Shown piece after piece: positions 6,639-32,233 of a DNA stretch of 64,000 nucleotides. The DNA is from a virus: IMG/VR virus record IMGVR_UViG_3300033148_004740, positions 62,473 to 126,472 of that record. One strand, 5' to 3'. The number at the start of each line of letters is the position of its first letter. Positions within the stretch are counted from its first letter, which is position 1. The notes beneath the pieces were generated by a model, which worked only from the letters and a program-made list of their open reading frames with translations, did no database searches and was not told the origin of the DNA. A program made the position numbers and the translations under genes.

Positions 6639-6650
6639 TACACACCTCTG

Positions 6651-14635: not shown

Positions 14636-17600
14636 TTACCTCTCGGTCCCCGTTAACCAGGCAGAAAAACTACCTTGTGGTCGGAACCAGTTGTTTGGGT
14701 TGATTTTATCATACAGGTGTTCAGCGTATAGTGGGCTAGTTGCTCGAGTCCTGCTGCTCCAACGAGCAACACTCTGGGCGAAGGAACCTTTATTGCTTCG
14801 CGTCGGAACCCCACCAAGCATTGGTTTTCCTTGAAGAACCAGGGGACTGAAGCGAAGAGGGTGGGCCAATTGACTACGGGTCAATAGCTTATCTAGGATA
14901 AATGTACCAATGAAGTTATGGCGAACGGCACCAACGATAGCAGTTTTTGCCAGGGTAGTCGCCAGAGCTCCAAAAGAAACGCTTTCAGAAGATTGAGCAA
15001 ATGAGTTAGCTAAACCTTTAGCTGCGAGAGGGTTAGGGAGACCAAGACCAGGAACAAACACAGTGTGACCGCCTGTGCTGACGCCGGGCAAAGACCTTAA
15101 TCCTATCTTGTTCAAAGCATGTTCAGCAATTAGGCCCATAGCATCCATGGAAGCCATGGTAGTAACTTCGTTCACATGCACGCACATGCATGGAGTGATT
15201 TCCGTAATGAACCCATGCTGTTGCGAGAACTTATGGACGACCTGTTCTACCTCAATGGGGCCGAACATATCATTGTACTCATCAAGGACATAGCAGATGT
15301 CATAGGGCTTGATACGAGGATTCCCAATAATGATGATACTGCCACGATACCCATAGCCCATAGACTCCTTGAGCAGAGACTGGGCATACCGCTTAGCCGC
15401 TTCCTCCCCGATGCAGTTAGGATAGGACGCAAACATCTCTCTCTTCTCTTCGTCCGGGATAGCGTCATCTACCCTAAGAGTGAAGGTCTCTGCCTCGTCA
15501 AGCTTGAGGGACTGTGTCTTTTCATCCGGTGATGGTTCATCATCTTCATATTGTACGGTACAAATATTGAAGGTGTTCCAGGAGGTAGACTTTATGTCAT
15601 TGTGGATGATGTGCTGCGTGCTGGTTAGCACATGGTAGTTACGGAACGGCTTGATGATACCTCTGTCCTTCGACATCTGGAGCAAAGCTCGATTGACGAC
15701 AACCTCTCGTAGGTCATCGTCTACGGTCTTAGCCTTTCCGGTAACAATGGCCTTAACTCTCTTACTCAGAGACTGATTAGCCTTGGTAGCATCAGTCACT
15801 TCTTCAAGAGCATCTACACTCTTGTCTACAAATTTACTAACAGAATCATAAGCTCTGTCTTCTTTTCCTGTAGGCTTACGGGCAAAGTAGAGCTGGTTGG
15901 GGAGGCCAAAGAAGAGAGTCATGCGGGCACCCCAAACATCATCATAGGGGACGGGGTAGGCGATCCAACCTGGGTGGCGTAGAGTCATCTCTTGGATAAC
16001 GTCCCAAGCAGTCGCCCGATAGAGTTTGTATACTGTATTGTCGTACAGGCCATTCAGTCCAGAGTTACCAGTAGGAGCAAAGATGTTGTCGTCGGCAGGT
16101 GTAGGAATAATCTCCCACTTATTAGTCAACAAGGCACGGGACTTGTCCTTTGGGTCAGCTGGATCCCAACGACCAAAATGCGTTATCTCTGGGGCAGCCA
16201 TCATCTCTTCTAGAATTGTAGCCGTACTGGAGTCACCAGCACTGAACCAACCAGCACTAAATTCTTTGACATCTCCATAGACGTTCTGTACTAGCTCGAT
16301 ACCATAGCTCTGACAGGTGATCTCAATAATGTCGTCAGAAGGTGAGAAGGAAACATCTGTGATTACTCCATTGAGAACCTTCTCGAGCTCGTCAGGTTGA
16401 TTGTCGTACCCTAGTCTCAGCTGCATGGCAATGCCTGGCTGCAACATGAGAGAGGCAATTGGGTTCTCTAGGCCAGTATTAGCTGCGCCTGGTGCGAGAC
16501 TTTCCTTCGCTAAAGTGTCATCGGCTTTCCTTGGCTCGGTCTCTCGTCCCTGTCCCTGGAACTTCCGGTTACTAAGGACACCAGAAACATTGGTAAGTCG
16601 GATGATAGCAAGATCAGCAGGGAGCTTCTTGTTTCGGACCACCTCAATATCAACGACTGAGCTATAGCCAAAGAAGTCATCGAACTTATACTTCTTCCGC
16701 TCCCCCTCATCTGACTCAATGAAGTAGAGCTTGAAGGTAGGATAGGCTCTCATAATAGAGTAGCCCTGTGTCTTGATAAGATCCTTCTCTAGCTGCTCGA
16801 CACTCTTAGTGAACAAAGATTCGTTGGTGGGATCGAAGCCGACGATTGGGCCAGGAGACTTATGGAACTCACTATCTAGGACCTCGAGGGGAGGAAGGAC
16901 AGAAGTCTTGTTCGCATTGGCTCGGACTTCAAAATGAAGATGAGCTCCTGTCGAGTACCCTGTGTTCCCTACTTTACCAAGAGGATCTCCCTTCTTGACA
17001 TAGACTGGCTCGTTGCTCTCATAGAAACGCTTAGACAATGCCTGAATCATTGGTTCGTCTGGCCACTGGAGATGTGTGTAGACAGTGCGGTAGCCTCCTG
17101 CATGTATCAGACGAATGGTGACTGCCGTATCATGCTGCTTCAGCCGAATCTTTTCACGTAGTTTCAAAGGGTCTCTTCCCTGTGACTCTTTATACTCTCC
17201 CCAGGTCTCGTTGTAGGTAAGATACTTGTCCGGGATTACCTCTATCTTCCCATCTGCTGCGGCAAGGACCGTCAACAGTTTAGAAGTATTCCCAGGCCCA
17301 CCGTTACGGACGATGTCAATCCCTCTATGAGGAGCCGTGGAGATACCACCTCGGACCACACCGAAGTGACTAGATATATGCGTGTTCTCACTCTCAGATG
17401 TTGGCCAACCCCATTCAGGGTCTGCATTAGGATCTAGAGATGGAGGAGGCTTAACATAGGAAGAGGCAGGAAGATGGTCCAAGGTATCCTTGATTCCAAA
17501 GCGATGCTGTGCAACCTCTGCCCCGCGTGCACCTGTCATAGTCTTTTGGGGGCGAGTTTTTATGGTCTCGAGATAGAGATCTGCTCCAAGAGTAATTTTC

Positions 17601-20563
17601 TTCAGAGCCATCCCTCCTAACGTAGAGAGAGCTGACGAGAGGGCCCCTTCCTGATCGGGAGCTACGAGCACAGATTTTTTTCCAGCCTCTGTAGTACGAG
17701 AGTCAGCAGCTCGAGATTTGAGCGTGTTGATGGCTGTTTTTCTAGACTCAGGGAGAGTCTTTGATACTAGCCACTCAGCCCATTTCTTTATTCTAGTAGA
17801 AACTCTATCAGCATCACGACTGGGGCCCCCAGCAACAACATCTTCACGTATCTGTCCTGCGCGATCTGGACCAATAATTGTCCCCTCATAGACCTCTGTT
17901 AGCCAATCGTCCTCAGCCTGAAAACGCTTGTCTCCTTGTACAGTTATGATTGCAGTCTTCGCAGCATTGATTACATCGTTCCCAATCAGTTTGTCTGAGC
18001 CCTCTATCTGTGGGTTGTACAAATAGAAATCTGGATTGATCAGGCTTGCAATACCAATGTTATACAGCCCAAGGTTCTCTAGCTCATGAGTATCTTCAAG
18101 ATACTGAGCTACACGATCATAACTGTCATCCTGCTGAAGAGCGTTAACCACTTGAGAAAGAGGAAAGTCCGGATAGGCGTTGTTCCCACCGGCAGCTGTT
18201 GAAGCAGAGATAAGCTCACGGACACTTTCGAACTGCTTCAGCTCAATCAGTTCTGAGTTGAGAATGCGATCAGCTAATTCAGAGACCTTCCCAGTAAAGA
18301 GATTCATAGCCTCCTGGCCAGGACCGAGCGAAGCAATATCATGTGTCTCTTTTGTGCGATCTGCTATTAGAGTATTTAGCTGTTCTCTTTCTTCCGAAGA
18401 AAGGTCCTCTCCCTTACCAACCTTTTCCCAGAGGCCGAGAACTAAGCCAACATTCTTTTGTGGAGCTATTACTGGCTCAAAGTTAACAACACCGGCCAGA
18501 CCAGCAGTTCTGACTGGGGCACTACCAAATCCTTTCGGAGGGGGAGTTGGACCAATCTTAACCGCAGCGCGGCGTTCTTGAATAAACGGCAAGAGGTCCT
18601 CCGCTAATCTTTTCCCAGCTACTGCATTTCCATCCACAACATTAATAAGCATAAAGGCCAGATCTGCTATTGACGACTCAGTAATCAAGTTCAAATACTT
18701 TAGAACCTCCAACATAGTGAGATGTAGATAGAGCCCATATTGTGTAGCCGAATTAGCATAAGCATCTTCGGTTCCGTCCCGGGTCCCTCCATACCTATAG
18801 GAAGAAGCAACATCCCTGTTATATAGATGGATAGATCCTTCGTCATCTGGGGCCAAATCACCTGCTCCAATTAGAGGGAGACCAGCAAGCCCTAAGACAG
18901 GGCCTAAGGCTGCTGCTGCAACAGACCCAAGACCTGACACTCCTACTCTAGCCTTTCCTACTATTGGAAGTTTATCTGAATCTACACTGAAGCCAGACTT
19001 TGAGTTAAAACTAAAAGCATCTGAGACAAACTCGAGAGATTGACCAAGTACGTCGAGCACAGCATTCCTTAGCTGATAGCTAGAGGTAAACGATGTTCCT
19101 GCTACCAGTTTCTCTTGGGTCTCAGGGGTGACCGGGTTGTCGACCAGAGTGAAGACTGCACTGTAGGTTCCCGGTTTACCAGGAACAGTAGAGGTGCTCA
19201 TGTCCTCTACAATGAATTCTTTGAGCCCACAGAGATTAACGAGCTCGTTACGGAGACGTATGTTCCTCATACCAGCGGGGACCTGGCGCATCTTCCTTCC
19301 CTGGCTCTCTACCATGTTGTACCAGGTAGCAAGAGCTGCAATCCCGTCCTCATGAGGAGTCAGGATAGAAAGAGAGACGATACCATCTGTGCTTCCAATG
19401 TGTTGAAAGGTTGGATAACAGTGTCCGGTCATAGGAATGGTAGCAAGTGTATTCTCGAAACTGATTGAAATTCCTGTGATAATTAGACCCATGTCATCAA
19501 AGGCAAATACTTCCTCCTTCTGCATGAGTAACTTTGACTCTGCTCCTGTTCCTTCTCCCTTTGCTGCCTCCTCTAATGTGATATCTAGCCTGTCATGCCA
19601 TTCAATGATTGAACCACGCTTATCTGTTGTGACGTTCCAATCTGTTCCCTCTCCTACTAGGACACCCATAGAGGCAAGCTCTTTCTCCTTGCTTGCGATC
19701 TTTCCTCTGAGAACGCTCTTCACGTCTTCAAGACGAGGGGCTTCTTCAGGGAGATCGATAAAGGAGGAAGTATTCCAGACCTCTCTTACTGGGGCTATGT
19801 TCATGTCCAGTTGTTCTTTAACCTGGACGATGAGAGCACCGGGCATTCCAGCAAATTCACTTGTTCCAATCGCTGGAGTGAACTGTGTATACTTCACTAT
19901 CTCGCTGTCCATCTCTTTGAGGGCAGCTATGTCGCTCCTTAGAGCATTGAACATCTTCTTAGCGACTAGCATGTACTGGCTGACAAACATCTCTGTACCA
20001 GGAGTAGAGAGGTGACCCACTTCAGCGTCTCCAGGATAGGGACCGCGCATCTGCTCAGCCTTATAGAGGAGCCTCCAAGCCTTAGAATGCTTAGGGTTCC
20101 GGACGCCCTTGGGAATGAAGATGTCCTCACGGAAGATGAAGTCGTTAGAATAAGGGAAGTAATTGAACCAGGAAAACATTAGATTCAGTGTGAGAACATT
20201 AGTATCTGAACCAGCAGCATCAACTATCTCGAGCTGCTTGAGTGCAAGAACCATGGCTTGGTCATTCTTATCGTTGGCGAGACCTAGGACACTCTTACGG
20301 ATGAAAGCATTCTCAACCCAGCAGAAGGGAGTGACGCGAATCTGGGAGACAAGGTCACGTAGCTTCTTTAGCTCATCACCTTGATCAACTATCTGAATTG
20401 TGACAGCAATATCAATCTGTGAGTATTCAGAGCTCAGCTTGATAGACGAACGGGTACGCAGAGTCGACCAGTAGTTGTTACTGGAGTTCCTCATGACCCT
20501 GATGTTCTCTGGAGGAACTACAAAGTCAATGTCGTTGATTTGGAAACTGCCGGTATCGGTCAT
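14636..20563 (-). CDS. Baseplate hub (gp27/gpD-like) fused to N-terminal tube-fold-like domains and an internal M23 zinc endopeptidase, 1975 aa
   Basis: M23 motifs PHRGIDI, LAAADGKI, TVYTHL, VKKGDPLGKVGNTGYSTGAHLHFEV (about 16925-17340). Hub motifs MQLRLGY...VLNGVITDV...IEITCQSYG and GSIIIIGNPRIKPYD...IEVEQVVHKF...FITEIT. Confidence 0.85.
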   Translation of the reverse strand: MTDTGSFQINDIDFVVPPENIRVMRNSSNNYWSTLRTRSSIKLSSEYSQIDIAVTIQIVDQGDELKKLRDLVSQIRVTPFCWVENAFIRKSVLGLANDKNDQAMVLALKQLEIVDAAGSDTNVLTLNLMFSWFNYFPYSNDFIFREDIFIPKGVRNPKHSKAWRLLYKAEQMRGPYPGDAEVGHLSTPGTEMFVSQYMLVAKKMFNALRSDIAALKEMDSEIVKYTQFTPAIGTSEFAGMPGALIVQVKEQLDMNIAPVREVWNTSSFIDLPEEAPRLEDVKSVLRGKIASKEKELASMGVLVGEGTDWNVTTDKRGSIIEWHDRLDITLEEAAKGEGTGAESKLLMQKEEVFAFDDMGLIITGISISFENTLATIPMTGHCYPTFQHIGSTDGIVSLSILTPHEDGIAALATWYNMVESQGRKMRQVPAGMRNIRLRNELVNLCGLKEFIVEDMSTSTVPGKPGTYSAVFTLVDNPVTPETQEKLVAGTSFTSSYQLRNAVLDVLGQSLEFVSDAFSFNSKSGFSVDSDKLPIVGKARVGVSGLGSVAAAALGPVLGLAGLPLIGAGDLAPDDEGSIHLYNRDVASSYRYGGTRDGTEDAYANSATQYGLYLHLTMLEVLKYLNLITESSIADLAFMLINVVDGNAVAGKRLAEDLLPFIQERRAAVKIGPTPPPKGFGSAPVRTAGLAGVVNFEPVIAPQKNVGLVLGLWEKVGKGEDLSSEEREQLNTLIADRTKETHDIASLGPGQEAMNLFTGKVSELADRILNSELIELKQFESVRELISASTAAGGNNAYPDFPLSQVVNALQQDDSYDRVAQYLEDTHELENLGLYNIGIASLINPDFYLYNPQIEGSDKLIGNDVINAAKTAIITVQGDKRFQAEDDWLTEVYEGTIIGPDRAGQIREDVVAGGPSRDADRVSTRIKKWAEWLVSKTLPESRKTAINTLKSRAADSRTTEAGKKSVLVAPDQEGALSSALSTLGGMALKKITLGADLYLETIKTRPQKTMTGARGAEVAQHRFGIKDTLDHLPASSYVKPPPSLDPNADPEWGWPTSESENTHISSHFGVVRGGISTAPHRGIDIVRNGGPGNTSKLLTVLAAADGKIEVIPDKYLTYNETWGEYKESQGRDPLKLREKIRLKQHDTAVTIRLIHAGGYRTVYTHLQWPDEPMIQALSKRFYESNEPVYVKKGDPLGKVGNTGYSTGAHLHFEVRANANKTSVLPPLEVLDSEFHKSPGPIVGFDPTNESLFTKSVEQLEKDLIKTQGYSIMRAYPTFKLYFIESDEGERKKYKFDDFFGYSSVVDIEVVRNKKLPADLAIIRLTNVSGVLSNRKFQGQGRETEPRKADDTLAKESLAPGAANTGLENPIASLMLQPGIAMQLRLGYDNQPDELEKVLNGVITDVSFSPSDDIIEITCQSYGIELVQNVYGDVKEFSAGWFSAGDSSTATILEEMMAAPEITHFGRWDPADPKDKSRALLTNKWEIIPTPADDNIFAPTGNSGLNGLYDNTVYKLYRATAWDVIQEMTLRHPGWIAYPVPYDDVWGARMTLFFGLPNQLYFARKPTGKEDRAYDSVSKFVDKSVDALEEVTDATKANQSLSKRVKAIVTGKAKTVDDDLREVVVNRALLQMSKDRGIIKPFRNYHVLTSTQHIIHNDIKSTSWNTFNICTVQYEDDEPSPDEKTQSLKLDEAETFTLRVDDAIPDEEKREMFASYPNCIGEEAAKRYAQSLLKESMGYGYRGSIIIIGNPRIKPYDICYVLDEYNDMFGPIEVEQVVHKFSQQHGFITEITPCMCVHVNEVTTMASMDAMGLIAEHALNKIGLRSLPGVSTGGHTVFVPGLGLPNPLAAKGLANSFAQSSESVSFGALATTLAKTAIVGAVRHNFIGTFILDKLLTRSQLAHPLRFSPLVLQGKPMLGGVPTRSNKGSFAQSVARWSSRTRATSPLYAEHLYDKINPNNWFRPQGSFSAWLTGTER

Positions 20564-20569
20564 GCGCTC

Positions 20570-23500
20570 CTACCCGAATATCTTGTCAGCCATAGTGTAT
20601 GGATTGTTGCTAGACCTACTGTCCCTGACGTTTAGATTAACAGAACTTCCACCACCCGTCATCCCCGATATAGAGGAGGCCAGGCTAGATGGAGTCACCA
20701 TGAAGTTGGATCGAGCTCGAACATGTGCTCGTGTACGAGGAGGACCAGCCAAATGTACAGCATTCTGATGCATCATACCAGGGGCAGAAGGAGAACCCAT
20801 CTGGGCAGAGACCTGCATATCGTCTTGCTTCATGCGACCAGCTCCCTTTCCTCTATTCAGACTCACTCGTGTCTGCATCCCTCGTCCTGAGCCTACAGTC
20901 TCATTAGGAGAAGAGAGAGCAAGGGACAGAGCGATAGCACCAGCAAGGCCATAGCCAATAGGCTTATGGTGACGGATCATCCCGCGCCCTGCCTTGCCTA
21001 GCAAGTTCTCTATCGTCCCTCGAGCCCCAACAGCTTCTCCCATTGCGTGACCACCAGAGAAGCTCACAGTCTGTAGGAACTGCTTAATCGCACCAGGCTG
21101 GAACAATCGTCCACCAGTGCCACTGATCAGCTGAGCCTTAGCGAGCTCTCCAGATTTTTCAAACTTGTGTAGTGACGACATGAGTCCCTTAGCGGTTCCC
21201 TCTACGTCAATGCCACTTAGTTTGTTTCCAAGACTAAAGCCCAAAGCCTTCTCTGCGTCACGAGCTCCAGAGATAGCCAGGTCCTGACTCAATAGCTTTT
21301 GGCCAGCGGTCCCCGGCTTAACAATCTCGTTGATCTCTCCGATTAGAGAGGTGGCATCCCGCTGAGTAAATGAGCGACGGATAGCTTCCATCTGTGCTTC
21401 AAAGGAAAGGGTCTTCTCTCCAGCAATATGTTTACCAGAGATAGGTGTCTGTTCTAACCACTCGAGCAGGAACTGAGCATCAGCTAATTTCTTCCCTTTC
21501 ATATGCTGGAGGGAAGCTCTGCGGGCTGTAGTCAATTCAGTGGAGAGGAAGGGGACCTCGCGTTGAGTAATCCCCAGCTTTGCGATATCTCCATATACGT
21601 TCTTCTCTATTTGTGCCAAGGTCATAGCCCCTGCGCTCTTCTTAGCCTTAACTAGCTGTAGCCTCATCTGATGCTGAGCATAGGCAACCTGGTATTCGTT
21701 ACCAGCCATTTGGTTAAAGTGGGCCAGCTGTTTAGCTGACTTAGGGCTAACCAAGAATGCAGACAAGGCATCAGCGTCTTTATCAGCTGCCATACCTAAC
21801 ATAGGAGAAAGATTCATCTGGTGGACCTCTCCACCGATGTTCATGCGGACCTTCTTCTCTGCTACAGCAATACTGTCCTCGAGAGTATCTACTGCCTCAA
21901 ACATTACAGGCTGTAGAGAGAAGGCCCCAATAAGTGGGTCACGAGCCACCATTCCCTGTACCTTTCCTGTGCTCTTGAACTGCTCGAACATCTCGGTAAG
22001 CTCTGAGCCATACATGCCAGTGCGTCTCATCTCACCAAACATATTCTCGATGTGGCTCTTCGATATGCCAACAGTGTTTAGGTCAGTGGGAGTATAGTTC
22101 CCTATCTGGGAAACTGCTTTGAGGCGTCGAGAGCCAGTGACCTTTCCTCTTAGAAAGCCACCAAGGCCTTTACCAGCAGGGGCTGCTTGGCCTGCAAGCT
22201 CAGCCATTGCTTTCTTCATATAAGAGTCCATGGCCCCTGCGCCTAGATCACCAGAAGCAAAGGCTCCACCTCTCTCTGCTATACGGTGATAGACGTCAGG
22301 GAGGTAACCGGCAATCTTCCCGGTAGGTGTAGCATGCGGCTGCATAGCTGGGGTATTGACACCTGGGACAAAGACATCTGGGCGTCCCTCTCCCATCTTC
22401 ATCCACCCTCCACCGCGTTCAATGAAGTTCTGGAAATCACCTCGAGAATATGGATGCTTAGAAACGTCCCAGTCAGCAGTACCAGGCATACTAATCTGGC
22501 CCTGCATAGAAGAAAGACTCTTAGTGATATCTTCAAAAGCAGACACTTTCTCAGGAGAGGTAATAGCAACTCGGCGAGCGAGATCATCTGCTAGTTCACT
22601 TGCAAACGGAGTGTCTCTATACGGAGCTCCTTCAAGGATATCAAACACACGAGGTTCAATATTTCCCAGGCCTCCTACGCCCTCGTGAGGTCCACCCCAC
22701 GTAAGCTGAGCCCCACCAACAGCAATGCCACGGAACATTTCGCGGAAAGTCTGCGTACTGGTAACACCTGCACTGGAGGCCATTTGGTATGCTGCCTTAG
22801 CTCCAAACACTTTGGGAACAGCACCAAAGATTCGACCGAACTCCTCTCCAGTAACATTCCCGTGTCTGACAGCAAATCCCATGGCCCTCTCAACAAAAGC
22901 TTGTTGAGACTTCTGTGTACGATCCCAAGTGTGAGCAAACGACAGGGGCTTACGCATGAAGCGCTCTCCCCATGGGCCGAGATCCTTATCTAACATAGTC
23001 TGGTACATACCAGTCATGATCTGTTTGTTCAGCTTGGCCGGATCTTTTACAAGGTCATCGAAGGATGCGAGTACATCTACTGGAGCTCGCATTCCGAATC
23101 CACGGCCAGTAGAGAAACGCATCAGGTCGTCTTCAGTAAATCTAGCGAGAGCCTTTAGGTCACCAAACCACTTCTCTTGCTGACCAAGGCGACGACGATT
23201 CATCTGCCACAGTGTGACAAAGTCTCCCTTATTAACGTCTTTGAAATTCTCGATGCCCATGATGGCACCCTCTGCAGCTGAAGGGGCGGTGACCAATGCT
23301 CCAGTCTTTGCGCTCCTTCCAAGAACAGTACCTGGAGCAACAGTCTCTCCTGCACGAATTGCGTTCATTACGTCTCTGTCTACAGCAGTAAGATGAGTAG
23401 AAGTAGCATACTCTTGTTGCATGATACCTTTAACGCGAGAGCTCATAAGAGCTTCACCCTCATTAACCCCTAGTCTCTCTAACTCGCCAGCATACTTCTC

Positions 23501-24871
23501 TGGATCGACATAGGCTGTTGTAAGGTAAGGGGCAGAGGCATAAGCTTCCCGAGCTGCTGTGTCAAAGGCTCCTAGCTCAGCGACGGAGGCTGCTCGAGCT
23601 TGAGCTTCTCCTGTGTATCCCCACGCACGAACTGCCTGTTGTGGCGACCTTCCCATTGCTGTGCGACGTGGCGTTGGGTACAAATCAGCGATGTCGAATG
23701 TTTGTGCCCGGCCCTTTGATACACCAGTTGCACCCACTCCACCAAACAGTTTCCTCTCTTCCATAATCGACATGTACTCAGCAGTCCTAGGATCTCTAGT
23801 AGAAGCTTTCCAATTGAATGGTCCCGTCTGATCAACTGCCTCTGTCGCTATTCTGATATCAACTTGCTGGCCACGAAAATCTCTGTAGCCTTGCATCCAT
23901 GATGGTTCTAATCCTTCTGGCATATTGGGCAGTGTCTCTAGTTCACGGAAGATAGAAGTGCTCATCGATTTGATGGCAACATCGAGCTCACCTTGAGAAC
24001 GAATGCGACCTTCTTTGAGAGCAGGCATAATAGTTGTTTCAAATTCTCTCAGGAAATACTCATGGCGAGCCATCGACTTGTACTTGAAACCGCCTCCGTC
24101 TTGAGGCGTAGCAAGAAGAATATCAGGAGAGATATAACGAGTCTGGAGAGACTGGCCCATGAGCATGGTCCCATCACGGGTAATAGGAAGATTGAACCCT
24201 ACCTCGAGCCCTCCTGCTGCTTGCCAATGAAAACGATAGGCTTCTCCAGGAAGGCCTGGGCGTGTGATCTGTTGAGCGAGCCCCCCTGTTGCTCCAAGAC
24301 CTTTTGTAATATCATTGAAATAACTAGAGACTCCGGGAATCATATCCACAGGGTTAATGGTCGAGGGCTTGAGCCTCAATTCGCGAACAGAGGAGATGTC
24401 TGGAAGGTTTCCTAGCTTGGACTGCTGCCAGCTGAGGACATCTACGTTCTCTCTGAAACGCGCGGTCACCCTCTGCATCAGGTTAGACTGGTTACGACCT
24501 ACCGTCTCTCTAATAGCCGTATATACGTCCTGAGGATTCTTATAGGTTCCTAGCTTTGAGGTAAAGGACAGGAGCTTCTGCTTGGACATAGGATCTGCCG
24601 CTGCCATAGCTTGTTCCCATGCCTGTTGGGCTACCCGTGCCCCTTCCTTCTCTAGGAAGAACTTCTCCTTACCTCCCATATAGCGTAGGAAGTCAGCAAC
24701 AGAAGCCTCCCCTTTAGCAGCAGAGCCTGTTCTCATAGCTCCTAGAAGAGAAGAGGTAGTACCTACTTCTGTGGTACCTGCACGGGATTGCCTTACAGCA
24801 GCCGCTACACCCGCTACAACAGGAGCACCTATGATGGCAGACTCTAGTAGACCTGGGCCGTCATTAGCCAT
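20570..24871 (-). CDS. Single-chain two-barrel (beta+beta'-like) RNA polymerase with hydrophobic N- and C-terminal segments; putative virion RNAP, 1433 aa
   Basis: Colinear degenerate RNAP motifs: RRTAMGRSPQQAV, GVNEGEALMSSRV, IRAGETVAPGTVLGR, RRLGQQEKWFGDLKAL, PVDVL, GGLGNIEPRVFDIL, LPDVYHRIAE, FLRGKVTGSRR, LNTVGISKSHIENMF, MVARDPLI, MAADKDADAL (21770-21784), VPFLSTEL, EQTPISGKH. Confidence 0.85.
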   Translation of the reverse strand: MANDGPGLLESAIIGAPVVAGVAAAVRQSRAGTTEVGTTSSLLGAMRTGSAAKGEASVADFLRYMGGKEKFFLEKEGARVAQQAWEQAMAAADPMSKQKLLSFTSKLGTYKNPQDVYTAIRETVGRNQSNLMQRVTARFRENVDVLSWQQSKLGNLPDISSVRELRLKPSTINPVDMIPGVSSYFNDITKGLGATGGLAQQITRPGLPGEAYRFHWQAAGGLEVGFNLPITRDGTMLMGQSLQTRYISPDILLATPQDGGGFKYKSMARHEYFLREFETTIMPALKEGRIRSQGELDVAIKSMSTSIFRELETLPNMPEGLEPSWMQGYRDFRGQQVDIRIATEAVDQTGPFNWKASTRDPRTAEYMSIMEERKLFGGVGATGVSKGRAQTFDIADLYPTPRRTAMGRSPQQAVRAWGYTGEAQARAASVAELGAFDTAAREAYASAPYLTTAYVDPEKYAGELERLGVNEGEALMSSRVKGIMQQEYATSTHLTAVDRDVMNAIRAGETVAPGTVLGRSAKTGALVTAPSAAEGAIMGIENFKDVNKGDFVTLWQMNRRRLGQQEKWFGDLKALARFTEDDLMRFSTGRGFGMRAPVDVLASFDDLVKDPAKLNKQIMTGMYQTMLDKDLGPWGERFMRKPLSFAHTWDRTQKSQQAFVERAMGFAVRHGNVTGEEFGRIFGAVPKVFGAKAAYQMASSAGVTSTQTFREMFRGIAVGGAQLTWGGPHEGVGGLGNIEPRVFDILEGAPYRDTPFASELADDLARRVAITSPEKVSAFEDITKSLSSMQGQISMPGTADWDVSKHPYSRGDFQNFIERGGGWMKMGEGRPDVFVPGVNTPAMQPHATPTGKIAGYLPDVYHRIAERGGAFASGDLGAGAMDSYMKKAMAELAGQAAPAGKGLGGFLRGKVTGSRRLKAVSQIGNYTPTDLNTVGISKSHIENMFGEMRRTGMYGSELTEMFEQFKSTGKVQGMVARDPLIGAFSLQPVMFEAVDTLEDSIAVAEKKVRMNIGGEVHQMNLSPMLGMAADKDADALSAFLVSPKSAKQLAHFNQMAGNEYQVAYAQHQMRLQLVKAKKSAGAMTLAQIEKNVYGDIAKLGITQREVPFLSTELTTARRASLQHMKGKKLADAQFLLEWLEQTPISGKHIAGEKTLSFEAQMEAIRRSFTQRDATSLIGEINEIVKPGTAGQKLLSQDLAISGARDAEKALGFSLGNKLSGIDVEGTAKGLMSSLHKFEKSGELAKAQLISGTGGRLFQPGAIKQFLQTVSFSGGHAMGEAVGARGTIENLLGKAGRGMIRHHKPIGYGLAGAIALSLALSSPNETVGSGRGMQTRVSLNRGKGAGRMKQDDMQVSAQMGSPSAPGMMHQNAVHLAGPPRTRAHVRARSNFMVTPSSLASSISGMTGGGSSVNLNVRDSRSSNNPYTMADKIFG

Positions 24872-27800
24872 TAGAACCAGTCCCTCCTAGCTAAGCTATT
24901 GTAGTTAGGTTGTTCGTATACCTGCATTTGAACGGAATCTGTACCAGCAGGATCGAAGACTGTTCTCGTAAACACGTCTCCCTCCATCCGGTTTGTCATT
25001 AGTAACCCACTGATTCTATCATGGATTTCCCCTCGAGACAGAGTTCCCTCTCCTACAATAGGTTCAATTGCCTGATTATTAATGTAAGGCTTGTTAGCCA
25101 TAGCCTGTGCTCGGCCTGGCCAGAGGTCATACTCGTGCATATCCTCTCCCCAGTTCTGAATAACCTTTAGCTTTACGTCATCAAGGTCCACAGAAGGGTG
25201 CCACCCTACCCAGTCTGGGCCAGGAAGGGTAGATAATTGGGTCAGCAAATGGGTCTTGCGATACCAATCGCCATAGTTTTCTCCAGGTGAACGACTCTGC
25301 AGGTATGCCGAGTTCAGATCTTTGCTTGTCGGGAAGCCTTCAGTAGCAGCTTCATCGTAAATCTTGTCGATGAGCACGTCTGCTTCAGCTAATTCAGAGC
25401 CACTGAGCAGTTCATCCTTCTTCGCGCGACGTACTTCGTCCGCAAACATGACCTTCCACTGTGCAACATACAGTGCTTTTTCGTTTCGAGGGACCATCTC
25501 AAGGATCTTGGCACGTTCAGCTTCGGTTTCTGCACCTGCAAACGCGTTGAAGTAGTCTCGATCACGTCTCGGTAGAGCTCGGAAGATGGCACTGAAGTTT
25601 CTCGTGTACGGATTCAGACCAAATAGGGTCTGGTCCTTCTGACTTTCGAACTCTCGGAGTGCTGCAGAGTCCTGATTCTCTCGAGCAATGTTAGATAGAC
25701 GAGAGTATTTCACATATTTTAGGACATCAAAGTAGTCTTCGAGCTCACGACGACGTGCAATGTGACTGGGAACTCCTTCATATCCAACAGCTTGTGCCCC
25801 TAACCAGAACGATGGGCGCATGAAGTCACGGAAAGGATGGTTCCAGAATGCATTCTCGGTTCCATAAAGCTGAGTTCTTTCATAGTGCTCAATAGCAGTA
25901 CGCTGGTGAACCAGCTTAGCACCAGGAGAGATAGGTGTCATCTGGTCCAATGCAGTCTCGGCATTGTGAGACAAGGCCTCCCAGTAGCCACCGAAGTACT
26001 TTGCAAATAGGCCACTTTCTCCATCCTTGTCAGCCTTGAGTCTATTTATAGCCCCTATGATATTGGAAGAATCTTCCCCATCGTAATAAACCTTATCTCC
26101 AAAGAGCCCACCAGTAGAGGTAAGGTGCTTATATTCCTGGAACTCTACCCTAGTCTTCTTCTGCTGCAGCTGGTCCTGGGTCTGTTGGAATACCATCTCC
26201 TGACTCTCAGTCCAGCTCTCCTCCTTACGGGCCCTATTCACCATCCTAAGATGGTCTTTATAGTTCTCTGTATAGGGAGCAACATCAGCTAGTATCTTAT
26301 ACTTGTGAATTAGTGGGTAGTCCTCTGGGGAAACACCTTCGAGCTCTGGGTAACGGGCCTCATAACCTCGTCCTGGGAGCCGTAGCTCGCCCTCAGGGAT
26401 CTTTATATAGGGGTCACCATGTAGGAAGTCTGGAGACTTCGACCCGGGGCCTGGGAGCCATCCTGGCATCATGTTTGGAATCGGGTTGTACAGGGGGATC
26501 TGGCGACGTCTATGGGGGTACAAACGACGGAAGGCTTCTGTAGTACCCATGAGTCCACCAAGCTCGAGGTCCCAGTAACTACGCTCAAAACCAAACATAC
26601 GACGGGCACTCTCAAGCCTCTGTGTTTGGTCAAACCAGTCTGGGGTACCAGTCATCTGCTCTTTCATACTCATCATAGTAAAGCCTGGAAGACCTATCAT
26701 CTCCTGTAGGCGATAGATCTGTTCACCGACTATACCTGTTGTGTCATATGGAGTAGTGGGGACACCTCCGGGTGTCTCCCCAATCTCTGTAGCAATCCTC
26801 TGTCCGAACCTAGGAGGCTCAACTAGAGCTCCTTCTGAAGAGAGCCAGTCATCTTCGTGCATGATACGCTCAGGTTTGATAGCTCTGCCAACAGTCGCAG
26901 CAAGCAATGGTCCGACAAAGGGGACATCTTCAAGTGGCAAAGCGGAAACAGGGTATGGGCGCTCCTCATAATGTTTCTCTTCTAGGGCATAGGTGAACTC
27001 AGACTGGAACCAACGCTGGATCGGAGACAGAGCTTCTGCGTCATCGCCCCAGATACCTTCGTTCTTTGCATCCATCCTCATGCGTGCGTACCAGTGAGGA
27101 CGGAAGTAGGCAATGCGTTGTCCCTCAAAAGCTGATCGACCAAACTCCCACCAACGACCACGGCGAACAGGGACTTCCTGTGCTCCAGAGTAGATGGCTT
27201 CGAGTTCTTCAGGACTCTTCTCTGGAATCAGAGAGCCTGGAAGGAAAGGTACGATTGATAGTGCGCCGGCAAGACCGCCGATGATACCTGCCAGCTTGAC
27301 TGGACCAACCTTTCTGAACAGCTTGAAGGAGAGCTCACCTGTTCCTTCGGCAACTGGCTTCGCAATTCGACGCCAGAGATCTCCCATCTTCCCAGGGCGA
27401 GCATAGATACCAGACTCTTGAGTAAGAGAGCGACCCCACTGAGCAAGGCGAGTTTGTTTTCCATACTCAGATGCCCACTCTTCAGCTGCGGCTCGAGCTT
27501 GTACTGCAGTGGCTCCCCGGGTTTGTTCCCGAGCCATGTACCCAACCTTGAGACCATAGGCTGCGCCGGTACCGAACATGGCTCCCATCAATGGGAAGGC
27601 CATTAGTCGAGAGAAGTCTGTGCTACCAGGGGCAAGATCCTCTTGCCAATTCCTGTAGTCCTGTAGTCCAGTAGCCTGAGCAACTCGAGATGCTAGCAGG
27701 TTAGCTCTGGTGATAGCTGTGCCGGCAGCAACTGAAGTTCCCTCTTCGAGAATGGTCCCTTGAGTTAGAGCGCTCCCACTGGTCATCCAGTCCAGTGTCT

Positions 27801-28773
27801 GGTAACCCATGTAGGCGAGAGGAAGATAGAGACCATACTTTTTGAGCAGGCCTCCCATCATTCTGCCACCAGTAGATTCTGGTACTGCTAGTGTTGGCCT
27901 GATTCCTTTACCAAAGATCTTCTCAGTAGCCTTCTCAACAAAGCTTTGCCCTTTGGAGAAAGCAGTATCGAATGGAGGCATCTGTGCAGGGAGACGAAGG
28001 AGAGTATTAAAACGGGAAACCATAGCGGTTCCCCAGGCGCTTGCATGTCTCCAGGCTGCCTGTCCTCTAGTGTGTCCACCTACTACTGTTGTGGGCATAC
28101 CTCCTACGAGAGGAGGCTTGAATTCTGGGAACCCTTTAAGAGGTTGCACCTTACCGTAGAAGACTTCTGGATTATCGACTGGGGCTCCAACTACACGCGC
28201 CCACGAAGAAGTTAGCTTAGCGCTAGCATCTGGAGCAGTTCTGATCCCAGAAGCAAAAGGCAGTGCGACTTCGTCACTCTGTCCCCAGAAGAGCTTCGAG
28301 TCTCTGAATGCTAGACCCTCAGAGAGGACACGGCGGTAGGTAGTCCCAACACCAGGGTAGTTGCGCTTACCTATTAGTGAAGTGTAGTACTCGGCAAGCT
28401 GTTTTGTCCCTGTTCCCTCGGCCGCAAACAACGATGGTGGCAGCTGGAAACCAGCTCGGGTTGATGTCTCAAACTGTGAGAGAAAAGGACCAGCAGAAAA
28501 TGTACGAAAGATATGAGCAGGAGAGTACTCCTCGAGGACACGAGCTCCTCGAGCATACAGGTCCCAGACACGACCACCTTTCCAAGGAGCATACCCAAGA
28601 GCTACTACTCCTGCAACAGCTCCAGCCTTACCGAGCATGCCAGTTGCTGGATAGTCTTTCCTATAGAAATCTTCTTGCTGGTCGGCTGTCCACATAGGTG
28701 GAGATCGACGAGGATCTTGCAAAGAAGACCCATAATAAGGGCGACCATAACCTGGAGTATAATTATCTGGCAC
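24871..28773 (-). CDS. Tape-measure-like / DNA-ejection membrane protein, 1300 aa
   Basis: Immediately follows the two tail-assembly chaperones (the canonical TMP slot); several Gly/Ala-rich hydrophobic segments (GAVAGVVALGY, YGLYLPLAYMGY, LMAFPLMGAMFGTGAAYGL, LAGIIGGLAGALSIVPFL); helical C-terminal half. Confidence 0.6.
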   Translation of the reverse strand: MPDNYTPGYGRPYYGSSLQDPRRSPPMWTADQQEDFYRKDYPATGMLGKAGAVAGVVALGYAPWKGGRVWDLYARGARVLEEYSPAHIFRTFSAGPFLSQFETSTRAGFQLPPSLFAAEGTGTKQLAEYYTSLIGKRNYPGVGTTYRRVLSEGLAFRDSKLFWGQSDEVALPFASGIRTAPDASAKLTSSWARVVGAPVDNPEVFYGKVQPLKGFPEFKPPLVGGMPTTVVGGHTRGQAAWRHASAWGTAMVSRFNTLLRLPAQMPPFDTAFSKGQSFVEKATEKIFGKGIRPTLAVPESTGGRMMGGLLKKYGLYLPLAYMGYQTLDWMTSGSALTQGTILEEGTSVAAGTAITRANLLASRVAQATGLQDYRNWQEDLAPGSTDFSRLMAFPLMGAMFGTGAAYGLKVGYMAREQTRGATAVQARAAAEEWASEYGKQTRLAQWGRSLTQESGIYARPGKMGDLWRRIAKPVAEGTGELSFKLFRKVGPVKLAGIIGGLAGALSIVPFLPGSLIPEKSPEELEAIYSGAQEVPVRRGRWWEFGRSAFEGQRIAYFRPHWYARMRMDAKNEGIWGDDAEALSPIQRWFQSEFTYALEEKHYEERPYPVSALPLEDVPFVGPLLAATVGRAIKPERIMHEDDWLSSEGALVEPPRFGQRIATEIGETPGGVPTTPYDTTGIVGEQIYRLQEMIGLPGFTMMSMKEQMTGTPDWFDQTQRLESARRMFGFERSYWDLELGGLMGTTEAFRRLYPHRRRQIPLYNPIPNMMPGWLPGPGSKSPDFLHGDPYIKIPEGELRLPGRGYEARYPELEGVSPEDYPLIHKYKILADVAPYTENYKDHLRMVNRARKEESWTESQEMVFQQTQDQLQQKKTRVEFQEYKHLTSTGGLFGDKVYYDGEDSSNIIGAINRLKADKDGESGLFAKYFGGYWEALSHNAETALDQMTPISPGAKLVHQRTAIEHYERTQLYGTENAFWNHPFRDFMRPSFWLGAQAVGYEGVPSHIARRRELEDYFDVLKYVKYSRLSNIARENQDSAALREFESQKDQTLFGLNPYTRNFSAIFRALPRRDRDYFNAFAGAETEAERAKILEMVPRNEKALYVAQWKVMFADEVRRAKKDELLSGSELAEADVLIDKIYDEAATEGFPTSKDLNSAYLQSRSPGENYGDWYRKTHLLTQLSTLPGPDWVGWHPSVDLDDVKLKVIQNWGEDMHEYDLWPGRAQAMANKPYINNQAIEPIVGEGTLSRGEIHDRISGLLMTNRMEGDVFTRTVFDPAGTDSVQMQVYEQPNYNSLARRDWF

Positions 28774-29699
28774 TACTTAGTCTTGGCAGACCTGCGGCGT
28801 TTTCGAGACTTCTTGGGTTTTACCTTACTAACCTTAGCTTCAAGCTCAGCTATCCTTGTCTGTTCTTCCTGGACCATGAGCAGATTTGCTTTCTTGTTTT
28901 CTTGTTTTTGTTCTTCCAGGGCTGCCAATCTCTCCTCTGGGCTCATGATCTTAACCTTCTCTCCTTTCTTCATCTGTTCTATGTATTCATGATAGACACT
29001 AGGAACATCATCCATTGATTGCTTCTCAAAGATTACAGCATCAACTTTATCATGCCCAGCCAACGCTGCCAGGTGCTCAACATGGTCCTTCTGGCCGATG
29101 ATTGTCTGCTCCTCCTGAGGAGCTGCTGGCTGTTGCTCTCTCCAGGCTCTCTCGAGCTCTTCTGGAGGAGGTAGTTTTTCAACACGGGGCCTCTTCTGAT
29201 CCTGCTGGTCAGTAAAGGAAATAGGCTGTTGGAGAACTCCTACCTGTATAAGCTTACGTTCAGCCTGAGCCAGCCTTGTCATGAAGGTGTCATAGTCCAT
29301 AGCATAGACCTGATCAGGGGTATATGCCGGGAAAGCTTGAGTTATCAAAGCTGCCATGTCATGGACTACAGAGGTAGCGTCATGTCGACATACAACAAGG
29401 CGCTGTTCGATATCATCTAATGTGGATGGCCCAGAGTGAGCCATGATTGCCTGAGCAACTGCTGATACAGTCCCTGCTGGGAGCTTGCTCATGTTATCGA
29501 CGAAGACTTGGTTGAGAACACACTTCTTGAAGGCCTCATCCTCGAGCACAGCATGAGGATATGCCCGAAGAGCAAAGCGTGTTTGCAAGTCTAGGAACTC
29601 ACCGATAGTTAGAGGGCGCCACGGAATAGTCTCCCCATCTGGGAATACAGAAGCGAAGACTGAATCGTGCTGCTCCCTTAGCAGGAACAGCTCTCTCAT
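28773..29699 (-). CDS. Tail assembly chaperone, long paralogue (gpGT-like)
   Basis: QHDSVFA...IPWRPLTIGEF...AFKKCVL...PAGTVSAVAQAIM, then AFPAYTPDQVYAMDYDTFMTRLAQAE; position directly before the TMP-like gene. Confidence 0.7.
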   Translation of the reverse strand: MRELFLLREQHDSVFASVFPDGETIPWRPLTIGEFLDLQTRFALRAYPHAVLEDEAFKKCVLNQVFVDNMSKLPAGTVSAVAQAIMAHSGPSTLDDIEQRLVVCRHDATSVVHDMAALITQAFPAYTPDQVYAMDYDTFMTRLAQAERKLIQVGVLQQPISFTDQQDQKRPRVEKLPPPEELERAWREQQPAAPQEEQTIIGQKDHVEHLAALAGHDKVDAVIFEKQSMDDVPSVYHEYIEQMKKGEKVKIMSPEERLAALEEQKQENKKANLLMVQEEQTRIAELEAKVSKVKPKKSRKRRRSAKTK

Positions 29700-30139
29700 T
29701 ACAACTTGATTACGATCTGAGATGCAATCCGTGGATCCAAGAAGTTAGAGTTGACCATGATCTGCTCGTGGAGCAGAGTGATAGTCCCACCCTTCTGGGC
29801 CATAGCTATCATCCCTAGGGGAGAACCCCAAAGAACGCACCTGTGTACTACCTCAGCTTCTACAGCGAGCTGTGTCAGTTGCTGTTCAACAGCGGCAACA
29901 CTAACCTCTGTGAACTCGGTACGGGTAACAGGGCGCCAGATAAACATCTCTGTATCGCTGGTGCCAGAGGCATAGACCGATCCGTGCTCTTGCTTCCATC
30001 CTTCCATGATCTCCTGGGTAGGAGCTCCTGGGAAAACAGCAAGGGCCTCGGCCAGATTCTTAATCTGCTCCTCGACTGCTTGTTCTTCCTGAGTCTGTTC
30101 TTGTTCTTCGACCTTAGCGGTTTCTTCTAGAGCTTCCAT
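29699..30139 (-). CDS. Tail assembly chaperone, short paralogue (gpG-like)
   Basis: WKQEHGSVY...FIWRPVTRTEF...VVHRCVLW...GGTITLLHEQIM. Start moved from 30166 to ATG 30139, which is preceded by AAGGAGGAG. Confidence 0.75.
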   Translation of the reverse strand: MEALEETAKVEEQEQTQEEQAVEEQIKNLAEALAVFPGAPTQEIMEGWKQEHGSVYASGTSDTEMFIWRPVTRTEFTEVSVAAVEQQLTQLAVEAEVVHRCVLWGSPLGMIAMAQKGGTITLLHEQIMVNSNFLDPRIASQIVIKL

Positions 30140-30169
30140 TGCTCCTCCTTTATGACTGGTCTCCAAGTG

Positions 30170-32178: not shown

Positions 32179-32189
32179 CAGAACTCCTT

Positions 32190-32217
32190 GTGAGAAGCAC
32201 CGGGATTAACCGATGCT
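32190..32217 (-). terminator. Stem-loop downstream of the major tube gene (probable terminator/attenuator)
   Basis: Minus strand AGCATCGG-TTAATC-CCGGTGCT (8 bp, one G.U) followed by TCTCAC; weak U-tract. Confidence 0.45.
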
Positions 32218-32233
32218 CCTCTGTATCTTAGAA

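What the first reader, a model, noticed from the sequence alone, without database searches (positions are those of the whole stretch)
14636..28773. Candidate tail-delivered, membrane-tethered transcription system: TMP-like protein, RNAP and hub/M23 translationally linked
Seen: the RNAP gene sits between the TMP-slot gene (TAATG overlap at 24871) and the baseplate hub (6-nt gap). It has a hydrophobic N-terminus (LLESAIIGAPVVAGVAAAV) and a C-terminal TM-like segment (HHKPIGYGLAGAIALSLALS, about 20915-20965) followed by a disordered tail. Established: Thermus siphophage P23-45 carries its virion RNAP fused to the tape-measure protein, and crAss-like phages eject a vRNAP. Inference: here a separate, membrane-anchorable RNAP is packaged in or near the tail of a myovirus, exits with the TMP after the M23 domain breaches the wall, and transcribes early genes, possibly helping to pull DNA in.
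Basis: inference. Interest (0 to 1): 0.8.

Follow-up and report, generated by a model that had tools for sequence, protein, structure and literature searches.

The report
RNA polymerase in the tape-measure slot
In this large uncultured contractile-tailed phage, the gene where the tail tape measure protein normally sits encodes a complete two-barrel RNA polymerase, most likely injected through the tail to start phage transcription, and most phages with the same upstream gene share this layout.

Summary
The sequence facts hold. The 1433-aa gene at 20570-24871 (-) is a real single-chain two-barrel RNA polymerase (RNAP). The AlphaFold2 model has pLDDT 88.5. Structure searches return almost only RNAP subunits. 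The DxDxD triad is invariant across the family.

The TAATG overlap, the 6-nt gap and both hydrophobic segments are present. Such tight gene junctions are normal in this operon.

The labelling needs correction. The upstream 1300-aa gene is not TMP-like. It is the ortholog of 0305phi8-36 gp145, a virion protein confirmed by mass spectrometry. Its model is globular, and its relatives carry inteins at four or more sites.

The RNAP itself occupies the tape-measure slot: two tail chaperones, gp145-like gene, RNAP, M23 baseplate hub. Its last 60-70 residues match the C-terminal end of 0305phi8-36 gp146, the virion tape measure protein.

The arrangement is widespread. In 59 of 73 IMG/VR loci holding a gp145-like gene, the next gene has an RNAP signature. 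Cultured phages vB_AbaM_ME3 (Acinetobacter) and KLEB27-3 (Bacillus) have it too.

Best reading (about 0.6): a tail-delivered virion RNAP standing where the tape measure stands, a contractile-tail counterpart of Thermus phage P23-45 gp96. Presence in the virion, membrane anchoring and enzyme activity are untested. The scan's first readers had already noted this same gene as a hidden RNAP.

The parts
29699..30166 (-). 155-aa protein, first of a two-gene tail assembly chaperone pair
   Evidence: Its C-terminal part is homologous to the N-terminal part of the next protein (BLASTP E 4e-9). The same arrangement was described for 0305phi8-36 gp143/gp144 (PMC2147016).
28773..29699 (-). 308-aa protein, second of the chaperone pair
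   Evidence: Its TAG stop overlaps the GTG start of the next gene.
24871..28773 (-). P0001, 1300 aa: gp145-family virion protein, not a tape measure protein. Hydrophobic segments at residues 390-408 and 494-512.
   Evidence: Family profile matches ME3_35 (E 1.5e-141) and 0305phi8-36 gp145 (E 1.2e-121). gp145 is a virion protein by mass spectrometry (record annotation). AlphaFold2 model of residues 101-1300: pLDDT 83.7, pTM 0.79, globular. No clear match in PDB. Homologs are 38-78% identical, and many carry inteins at four or more sites.
20570..24871 (-). P0002, 1433 aa: single-chain two-barrel RNA polymerase in the tape-measure slot
   Evidence: Synteny.
24794..24850 (-). N-terminal hydrophobic segment, residues 8-26
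   Evidence: Kyte-Doolittle score 1.97 over 19 aa. A Pro-containing hydrophobic segment recurs across the family (median 1.44 over 17 aa).
22667..24100 (-). Beta (Rpb2)-like half of the RNAP core, residues 258-735. Includes the near-invariant lysines K567 and K573 (within 23194-23132).
   Evidence: Model residues 1-478 align to second-largest RNAP subunits: Z 11-13.7 over 320-400 residues. K567/K573 are conserved in 90% or more of sequences.
21032..22504 (-). Beta-prime (Rpb1)-like half of the RNAP core, residues 790-1280
   Evidence: Model residues 533-1023 align to largest RNAP subunits at Z about 11.
21935..21943 (-). R-x-P motif, R977-D978-P979
   Evidence: R977 is conserved in 90% or more of sequences and P979 is invariant. 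It corresponds to Rpb1 R446/P448, two of the eight residues conserved in all two-barrel RNAPs (PMC2919709).
21770..21784 (-). DxDxD metal-binding triad, D1030-K-D-A-D1034
   Evidence: Invariant in alignments of 61, 107 and 53 sequences that go down to 18-20% identity.
20912..20971 (-). C-terminal Gly/Ala-rich hydrophobic segment, residues 1301-1320
   Evidence: Across the family the 17-aa Kyte-Doolittle median is 1.75, and 90% of members reach 1.5 or more.
20591..20764 (-). C-terminal module of about 60 aa, shared with the end of tape-measure-slot proteins of related phages
   Evidence: The family profile matches the extreme C-terminus of 0305phi8-36 gp146 (HMMER 19.3 bits, E 6e-8 in a 6-sequence set; hhalign E 2.7e-4). 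It also matches KLEB27-3 gp034 (E 3.8e-5) and MTATph1 CDS0031 (E 1.2e-5).
14636..20563 (-). P0003, 1975 aa: enlarged baseplate hub carrying an M23 peptidase (residues 1149-1219, window 16907-17119)
   Evidence: Pfam PF01551 E 4e-10. PHROG hub and endolysin families. tblastn matches the ME3 baseplate hub and relatives. NCBIfam peptidoglycan endopeptidases.
32937..34841 (-). Tail sheath, which shows the tail is contractile
   Evidence: phrog_16991 tail sheath, E 3.3e-78.

Best explanation
P0002 is a catalytically competent single-chain two-barrel RNA polymerase. It has a beta-like half followed by a beta-prime-like half.

In this lineage of large contractile-tailed phages it occupies the tape measure protein's place in the tail module. 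The gene order is two-gene chaperone pair, gp145-like virion protein, RNAP, M23 hub.

Proposed mechanism (inferred):
1. The protein is built into the tail. Its conserved C-terminal module anchors it at the hub end, as in other tape-measure-slot proteins of the lineage.
2. It is stored in a non-native, extended state.
3. On sheath contraction it is expelled, after the hub's M23 peptidase has opened the peptidoglycan.
4. Its conserved N- and C-terminal hydrophobic segments engage the cytoplasmic membrane.
5. The refolded polymerase core transcribes the first-entering genes, possibly helping DNA entry.

Shown here: the RNAP fold and catalytic motifs, the synteny, the C-terminal module shared with a virion TMP, and the conservation of the hydrophobic segments. 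Inferred: virion and tail location, ejection, membrane insertion and early transcription.
For: RNAP identity:
- AlphaFold2 model of residues 258-1304: pLDDT 88.5, pTM 0.88.
- All 50 Foldseek rows shown are RNAP large subunits.
- VIA-align gives beta-like subunits Z 11-13.7 on the N-terminal half and beta-prime-like subunits Z about 11 on the C-terminal half. Across both halves: QDE-1 Z 10.9 (413 aa), P74-26 gp62 Z 9.6, P23-45 gp96 Z 8.0.
- D1030/D1032/D1034 and P979 are invariant. R977, K567 and K573 are conserved in 90% or more of sequences, in a family with about 20% mean identity.

Tape-measure slot:
- The two upstream small proteins share a domain, like gp143/gp144 of 0305phi8-36 (PMC2147016).
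- P0001 is orthologous to gp145 and ME3_35.
- In 0305phi8-36 the gene between gp145 and the hub is gp146, the TMP, detected in virions by mass spectrometry.
- The C-terminal module of P0002 matches the gp146 C-terminus.

Conservation of the arrangement:
- The same gene order appears in relatives at 24-56% identity.
- All 36 family-profile hits among 568 ORFs in 78 IMG/VR loci are the first ORF after the gp145-like gene.
- 59 of 73 distinct loci have an RNAP signature in that ORF. The chance rate from shuffled sequences is 0.6%.

Cultured relatives:
- The ME3_36 group is homologous to the P0002 family: hhalign probability 99.3%, E 5e-20, 620 columns.
- The KLEB27-3 gp034 family is homologous: probability 96.5%, E 9e-10. 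Two of its members carry Pfam RNA_pol_Rpb1_2. gp034 is annotated 'structural protein'.

Other support:
- No canonical TMP family was found in the record or in four complete relatives.
- Precedent: P23-45 gp96 is a TMP-fused virion RNAP that transcribes pre-early genes (PMC10770324).
Against: - There is no direct evidence that P0002 or any close homolog is in virions.
- About 73% of the protein is predicted to be a compact globule that would not fit folded in a tail-tube lumen (established knowledge of tail geometry). Storage in the lumen requires an unfolded, metastable state.
- Only about 257 N-terminal and about 140 C-terminal residues lie outside the polymerase core. How tail length would be measured is therefore unclear.
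- The C-terminal module match is short and modest (19 bits).
- The hydrophobic segments are short and Gly/Ala-rich. They could be protein-protein contacts rather than membrane helices.
- Failure to detect a TMP by Pfam is weak evidence, because TMPs diverge quickly.
- The window's own record is only 66% complete.
Confidence: 0.6

Rival explanations
1. The RNAP is packaged in the capsid and ejected from there, as with N4 gp50, the crAss-like gp66 or the phiKZ virion RNAP. It is ejected through the tail but is not a tail-lumen component. Its position in the tail module would reflect co-expression only, and the C-terminal module would be an ejection or docking signal.
For: The globular 115-kDa core fits a capsid better than a tube lumen. 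Large virion RNAPs of other phages are capsid cargo (discussion in PMC10770324). No length-measuring segment is evident.
Against: The gene is always the one between the gp145-like gene and the hub, after a tail chaperone pair. Its C-terminal module is shared with the 0305phi8-36 TMP. No separate TMP was detected in complete relatives.
Confidence: 0.15
2. One reading: the upstream 1300-aa protein is the tape measure protein, and the RNAP is a separate passenger that leaves with it.
For: The upstream gene follows the chaperone pair directly. It has hydrophobic segments. Its ortholog gp145 is a virion protein.
Against: The P0001 model is globular (pTM 0.79). The family is 38-78% identical across its members (unlike fast-diverging TMPs) and is a target for inteins. 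In 0305phi8-36 its ortholog gp145 coexists with a distinct TMP, gp146, in the next slot.
Confidence: 0.08
3. A non-virion RNAP that is simply encoded in the late operon. It transcribes middle or late genes and is not packaged.
For: No virion data exist. In complete relatives it is the only RNAP detected, so it might serve general transcription.
Against: A polymerase made only with tail genes could not act early unless it is packaged. The strict slot conservation, the TMP-type C-terminal module and the conserved terminal hydrophobic segments have no role in a soluble enzyme.
Confidence: 0.08
4. A structural tape measure protein that keeps an RNAP fold which is no longer catalytic.
For: It sits in the TMP slot. 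0305phi8-36 gp146, in the same slot, has no DxDxD. A minority of loci lack the signature.
Against: DxDxD and P979 are invariant, and R977 and the lysine pair are near-invariant, in a family at about 20% identity. That is the pattern expected for a working active site.
Confidence: 0.05

Closest known systems
Thermus phage P23-45 gp96, a tape-measure-fused virion RNAP (PMC10770324)
   Same: Both are two-barrel RNAPs with DxDxD, encoded in the tape-measure gene of the tail module. Both have hydrophobic or transmembrane segments in the same protein. gp96 is proposed to be ejected and to transcribe pre-early genes at the entry pore. Structural match: Z 8.0 over 347 residues.
   Different: P23-45 has a non-contractile tail. 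gp96 is 5,002 aa, the RNAP is only its N-terminal part, and a metallopeptidase lies in the same chain. Here the tail is contractile, the RNAP core makes up about 73% of a 1433-aa protein, and the M23 peptidase sits on the hub. There is no detectable sequence similarity. The fold is at least as close to multisubunit beta/beta-prime and to QDE-1.
Bacillus phage 0305phi8-36 tail module (gp143/144 chaperones, gp145, gp146 TMP, gp147 hub)
   Same: Same gene order. P0001 is orthologous to gp145. The hubs are related. The C-terminal 60-70 aa of P0002 match the gp146 C-terminus.
   Different: gp146 is 2537 aa and has no DxDxD or detectable RNAP core. That phage's YonO-like RNAP is orf99, located elsewhere in the genome.
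Acinetobacter phage vB_AbaM_ME3 ME3_36 and Bacillus phage KLEB27-3 gp034
   Same: Both occupy the same slot between the gp145-like gene and the hub. Both are homologous to the P0002 family by profile comparison. Both have RxP...DxDxD motifs.
   Different: They are annotated only as hypothetical or structural proteins. They are too divergent for tblastn to find. The KLEB27-3 protein is 2434 aa and has an extra N-terminal region of about 1100 aa with DEDDh-exonuclease-like motifs.
Single-chain two-barrel RNAPs: QDE-1/RDR, YonO, crAss-like gp66
   Same: Both DPBB barrels lie in one chain with a DxDxD triad. QDE-1 matches at Z 10.9 over 413 residues spanning both halves.
   Different: No Pfam RdRP (PF05183) match. 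The beta-like half aligns over 320-400 residues to Rpb2/beta. The genomic context differs: here the gene is in the tail module.

Membership tests
Two-barrel (DPBB) RNA polymerase superfamily | Two double-psi beta-barrel domains forming a beta-like plus beta-prime-like core | tested here: met
   High-confidence model. RNAP large subunits fill the match lists. Isolated DPBB domains also match model residues 654-792.
Two-barrel (DPBB) RNA polymerase superfamily | DxDxD metal-binding triad in the beta-prime-like barrel, preceded by R-x-P | tested here: met
   D1030/D1032/D1034 and P979 are invariant and R977 is conserved in 90% or more of sequences. Positions verified.
Two-barrel (DPBB) RNA polymerase superfamily | Two conserved basic residues in the beta-like barrel (Rpb2 K979/K987) and a fourth acidic residue (Rpb2 D837) | tested here: inconclusive
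   K567 and K573 are near-invariant and lie on predicted strands in the beta-like half. No residue-level superposition was available. No invariant Asp was found in that half; E739 is near-invariant.
Two-barrel (DPBB) RNA polymerase superfamily | Template-dependent RNA synthesis | not testable with these tools
   Needs recombinant protein.
Tape-measure-fused virion RNAP (P23-45 gp96 type) | RNAP encoded within the gene in the tape-measure position of the tail module | tested here: met
   Order is chaperone pair, gp145-like gene, RNAP, hub. The order is conserved.
Tape-measure-fused virion RNAP (P23-45 gp96 type) | Protein present in virions and ejected | not testable with these tools
   Only indirect evidence: the C-terminal module is shared with gp146, which is confirmed in virions by mass spectrometry.
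Tape-measure-fused virion RNAP (P23-45 gp96 type) | Long non-polymerase tape portion with a metallopeptidase in the same chain | tested here: not met
   Only about 257 plus about 140 residues lie outside the core. The M23 peptidase is on the hub protein.
Classical tail tape measure protein | Gene directly upstream of the hub, with a conserved C-terminal end | tested here: met
Classical tail tape measure protein | Mostly extended helical polypeptide, or a match to TMP sequence families | tested here: not met
   Globular model with pTM 0.88. No Pfam or PHROG TMP match. Only a sub-threshold TMP_3 hit of 12.9 bits.
0305phi8-36 gp145 family (for the upstream gene P0001) | Full-length profile similarity and the same position before the tape-measure slot | tested here: met
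   E 1.2e-121 to gp145 and 1.5e-141 to ME3_35. Position.

The most novel reading that the evidence does not exclude
In a large clade of contractile-tailed phages the tape measure has been replaced by a complete RNA polymerase. One polypeptide is stored unfolded in the tail tube and sets or fills the tail. It is shot into the cell, anchors in the membrane by its two hydrophobic ends, refolds, and transcribes (and perhaps reels in) the entering genome. The conserved gp145-like protein would be its co-ejected partner.
Probability: 0.35. Interest if true: 0.85.

Novelty: new variant of a known kind. Interest (0 to 1): 0.72.

Why it matters
So far a tape-measure-linked virion RNAP is known from one group of Thermus siphoviruses. 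Here the same idea appears in a sequence-unrelated family in contractile-tailed phages of about 190-230 kb.

It is the rule rather than the exception in that lineage, with 153 clusters at 50% identity. Two cultured phages, vB_AbaM_ME3 and KLEB27-3, carry it unannotated, so the hypothesis can be tested directly.

It bears on several open questions:
- how large phages start transcription independently of the host;
- how a folded enzyme could travel through a tail;
- what measures tail length when the slot protein is mostly an enzyme.

It also gives a function to a large, previously unannotated protein family.

Tried and rejected
- Sequence searches of P0002 found nothing: Pfam, PHROGs and NCBIfam, PDB sequences with the single protein and with the family profile, megablast and tblastn against GenBank phages, and a peptide-pattern scan of IMG/VR.
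- The ESM Atlas gave only low-scoring leads for P0002 (0.84, including TMP-type clusters) and nothing for P0001. I did not use these as evidence.
- P0001 had no clear match in PDB: Foldseek best E 0.07, VIA best Z 5.7 on a small helical piece. BFVD returned only likely homologs. Its function stays unknown.
- 0305phi8-36 gp146 shows no RNAP core against either RNAP-family profile, so I dropped the idea that every slot protein in the lineage is an RNAP.
- I searched the window's record and five (near-)complete relatives for a second RNAP. There was no paralog and no Rpb1 domain 2. The RdRP and T7-type searches also found nothing, but their controls did not ring at that setting, so they are uninformative.
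- I found no published virion proteome for ME3 or KLEB27-3. The supplements of the P23-45 paper do not mention these phages.
- I did not run complex prediction on the C-terminal module with the hub. The hub's gp27-like parts are split by insertions, and the contact is probably trimeric, so a pass would have moved my odds little.


Full report
**Context.** The window is the last 64 kb of a 126,472-bp IMG/VR virus record that CheckV rates 66% complete. All genes run on the minus strand as one structural operon. In transcription order they are:
- large terminase (59477-61516);
- portal (53879-56488);
- major capsid protein (49061-50290);
- tail sheath (32937-34841);
- three paralogous small proteins;
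- a 155-aa and a 308-aa protein;
- the three large genes of the finding;
- baseplate wedge genes.

The sheath shows that the tail is contractile.

**Observation.** The coordinates are right.
- P0001 (24871-28773) ends in TAA, which overlaps the ATG of P0002 (20570-24871) by one base.
- P0002 ends in TAG, followed by 6 nt and the ATG of P0003 (14636-20563).
- P0003 has a Peptidase_M23 domain (E 4e-10) and hub-type similarity.
- The tight junctions are ordinary here. Of 44 junctions in the window, 17 overlap or abut and 16 more have gaps of 1-12 nt.

**Is P0002 an RNA polymerase?**

Sequence libraries give nothing. An exhaustive phmmer search of residues 258-1304 found 153 cluster representatives, nearly all 1430-1600 aa long.

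Alignments go down to 18-20% identity. Very few columns are invariant, and they include D1030, D1032, D1034 and P979. R977, K567 and K573 are conserved in 90% or more of sequences. Together these form an R-x-P ... DxDxD pattern plus a lysine pair. These are among the residues listed as common to all two-barrel RNAPs (PMC2919709).

AlphaFold2 on a 53-sequence alignment gave pLDDT 88.5 and pTM 0.88. The structure searches agree:
- All 50 Foldseek rows shown are RNAP large subunits.
- An independent all-against-representatives search placed beta/Rpb2-type subunits on model residues 1-478 (Z 11-11.6).
- The same search placed beta-prime/Rpb1-type subunits on model residues 533-1023 (Z about 11).
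- Single-chain enzymes matched across both halves: QDE-1 Z 10.9 over 413 residues at rmsd 4.2, RDR2 Z 10.3, P74-26 gp62 Z 9.6, P23-45 gp96 Z 8.0.
- A second look at Foldseek's top 1000 chains gave 863 chains with Z of 8 or more, best 13.7.

I conclude that the RNAP assignment is correct and that the active site is under selection.

**What is the upstream gene?**

P0001 is not tape-measure-like.
- Its family is large and unusually conserved, at 38-78% identity.
- Many homologs carry inteins at four or more different positions: near residues 547-555, 745, 790 and 1189-1193.
- The model of residues 101-1300 is globular (pLDDT 83.7, pTM 0.79). It has no clear match in PDB.
- Its family profile matches vB_AbaM_ME3 protein ME3_35 (E 1.5e-141) and 0305phi8-36 gp145 (E 1.2e-121). 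The 0305phi8-36 record marks gp145 as a virion protein identified by mass spectrometry.

**Which gene is in the tape-measure slot?**

In 0305phi8-36 the order is gp143 and gp144 (a two-gene tail chaperone), gp145, gp146 (the tape measure, a virion protein by mass spectrometry), then gp147 (hub) (PMC2147016).

The window has the same layout. The 155-aa and 308-aa proteins share a domain, C-terminal in the first and N-terminal in the second (E 4e-9). This is exactly as described for gp143/gp144. Then come P0001 (the gp145 ortholog), P0002, and the hub.

P0002 therefore sits where gp146 sits. The P0002 family profile also matches the extreme C-terminus of gp146, residues 2453-2519 of 2537. HMMER gives 19.3 bits, E 6e-8 in a 6-sequence set, and hhalign gives E 2.7e-4.

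The same C-terminal module ends two other slot proteins. One is KLEB27-3 gp034. The other is MTATph1 CDS0031, a remnant gene directly upstream of the Moorella phage hub, in a slot now interrupted by a transposase. The 2007 comparison of 0305phi8-36 with its prophage relatives likewise found only the last 60 residues of the tape measure conserved.

**How general is it?**
- Relatives at 56%, 24% and about 30% identity have the same three-gene order.
- I collected 78 IMG/VR loci using the P0001 family. Every one of the 36 ORFs that hit the P0002 family profile is the first ORF after the gp145-like gene, out of 568 ORFs scanned.
- Of 73 distinct loci with a downstream ORF, 34 are P0002-family members.
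- 25 more carry R-x-P, then 20-80 residues, then DxDxD, at 55-92% of their length. Shuffled sequences do this in 0.6% of trials.
- 6 loci have long ORFs without the signature, and 8 have short or truncated ORFs.
- The divergent group, which includes ME3_36 of the cultured Acinetobacter phage, is homologous to the P0002 family over 620 columns (hhalign probability 99.3%, E 5e-20).
- The KLEB27-3 gp034 family is also homologous (probability 96.5%, E 9e-10). Two of its members carry Pfam RNA_pol_Rpb1_2.
- 0305phi8-36 gp146 itself shows no RNAP core. The slot therefore holds either a classical tape measure or, more often, an RNAP-bearing protein with the same C-terminal end.

**Other checks.**
- Four relatives are complete genomes with terminal repeats, 188-198 kb long.
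- Those with a P0002-family gene have exactly one, and none shows Rpb1 domain 2.
- The RdRP and T7-type searches were uninformative because their controls did not ring.
- No PhageMin_Tail or TMP_3 family member was found in the record or in the four complete relatives. The one sub-threshold TMP_3 hit falls inside P0002 itself.
- Both terminal hydrophobic segments recur across the family.

**Mechanism.**

Shown: an RNAP with a conserved active site occupies the tape-measure position, ends in the lineage's tape-measure C-terminal module, and has conserved hydrophobic ends.

Inferred, by analogy with P23-45 gp96 (PMC10770324): it is assembled into the tail, ejected on contraction after the hub's M23 domain cuts peptidoglycan, associates with the membrane, and transcribes the leading genes.

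The main difficulty is physical. A compact core of about 1050 residues cannot sit folded in a tube lumen, and little non-enzymatic 'tape' is left.

**Literature.** Full-text searches found the P23-45 work as the only description of a tape-measure-linked RNAP. The known RNAP of 0305phi8-36 is orf99, which lies elsewhere in that genome. I found no description of RNAPs in the tape-measure slot of contractile-tailed phages. The library is incomplete, so this is not proof of novelty.

**Verdict.** The interpretation needs one correction: the RNAP, not the upstream gene, is in the tape-measure slot. With that correction it becomes stronger and more general. Virion location and function remain to be shown.

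Noticed in passing
window 24871-28773 and its homologs (P0163, P0169, P0172, P0185, P0206, P0212 and others): Homologs of the gp145-like virion protein carry inteins (Pfam LAGLIDADG_3, Intein_splicing, Hint) at four or more separate sites, near P0001 residues 547-555, 745, 790 and 1189-1193. Some carry two or three inteins at once. This is unusual for a virion protein and suggests functionally critical motifs, perhaps an unrecognised enzyme.
   Followed up: partly
L010:6197-13501 (Bacillus phage KLEB27-3 gp034) and alignment A5: The 2434-aa slot protein of this family has N-terminal motifs resembling a DEDDh 3'-5' exonuclease (YDTE, NFDQPMM, HHALSDV), invariant in 22 sequences. These are fused upstream of the RNAP region.
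   Followed up: no
L011 (Moorella phage MTATph1), about 4961-12317: The tape-measure slot seems to be interrupted by a transposase gene. A 1309-aa ORF lies upstream, and a 313-aa ORF that keeps the C-terminal module lies just before the hub.
   Followed up: partly
window 30170-32926: Three consecutive paralogous proteins (230, 401 and 267 aa) directly after the sheath all hit phrog_9206, which is labelled 'major head protein'. By position they are more likely tube or tube-associated proteins.
   Followed up: no
window 22736-22894 (P0002 residues about 660-712): The only hit to the Pfam tape-measure family TMP_3 in the whole record falls inside the RNAP, in the helical region between the two barrels. 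It is sub-threshold (12.9 bits, E 0.004).
   Followed up: no
P0171 (homolog of P0001): One homolog is deposited in NCBI as a protein of a 'Candidatus Bathyarchaeota archaeon' MAG. This is probably a phage contig binned with an archaeal genome.
   Followed up: no
window 14636-20563 (P0003): The hub has strongly hydrophobic Gly/Ala/Leu-rich segments of its own, at residues 548-566 and 1862-1880. Its N-terminal roughly 1100 residues have no family match.
   Followed up: no
window 37208-41332 and 56501-59029: Two further large structural-module proteins (1374 and 842 aa) have no Pfam match. The 842-aa protein, between the terminase and the portal, has a marginal PHROG tape-measure hit (E 7e-4).
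   Followed up: partly
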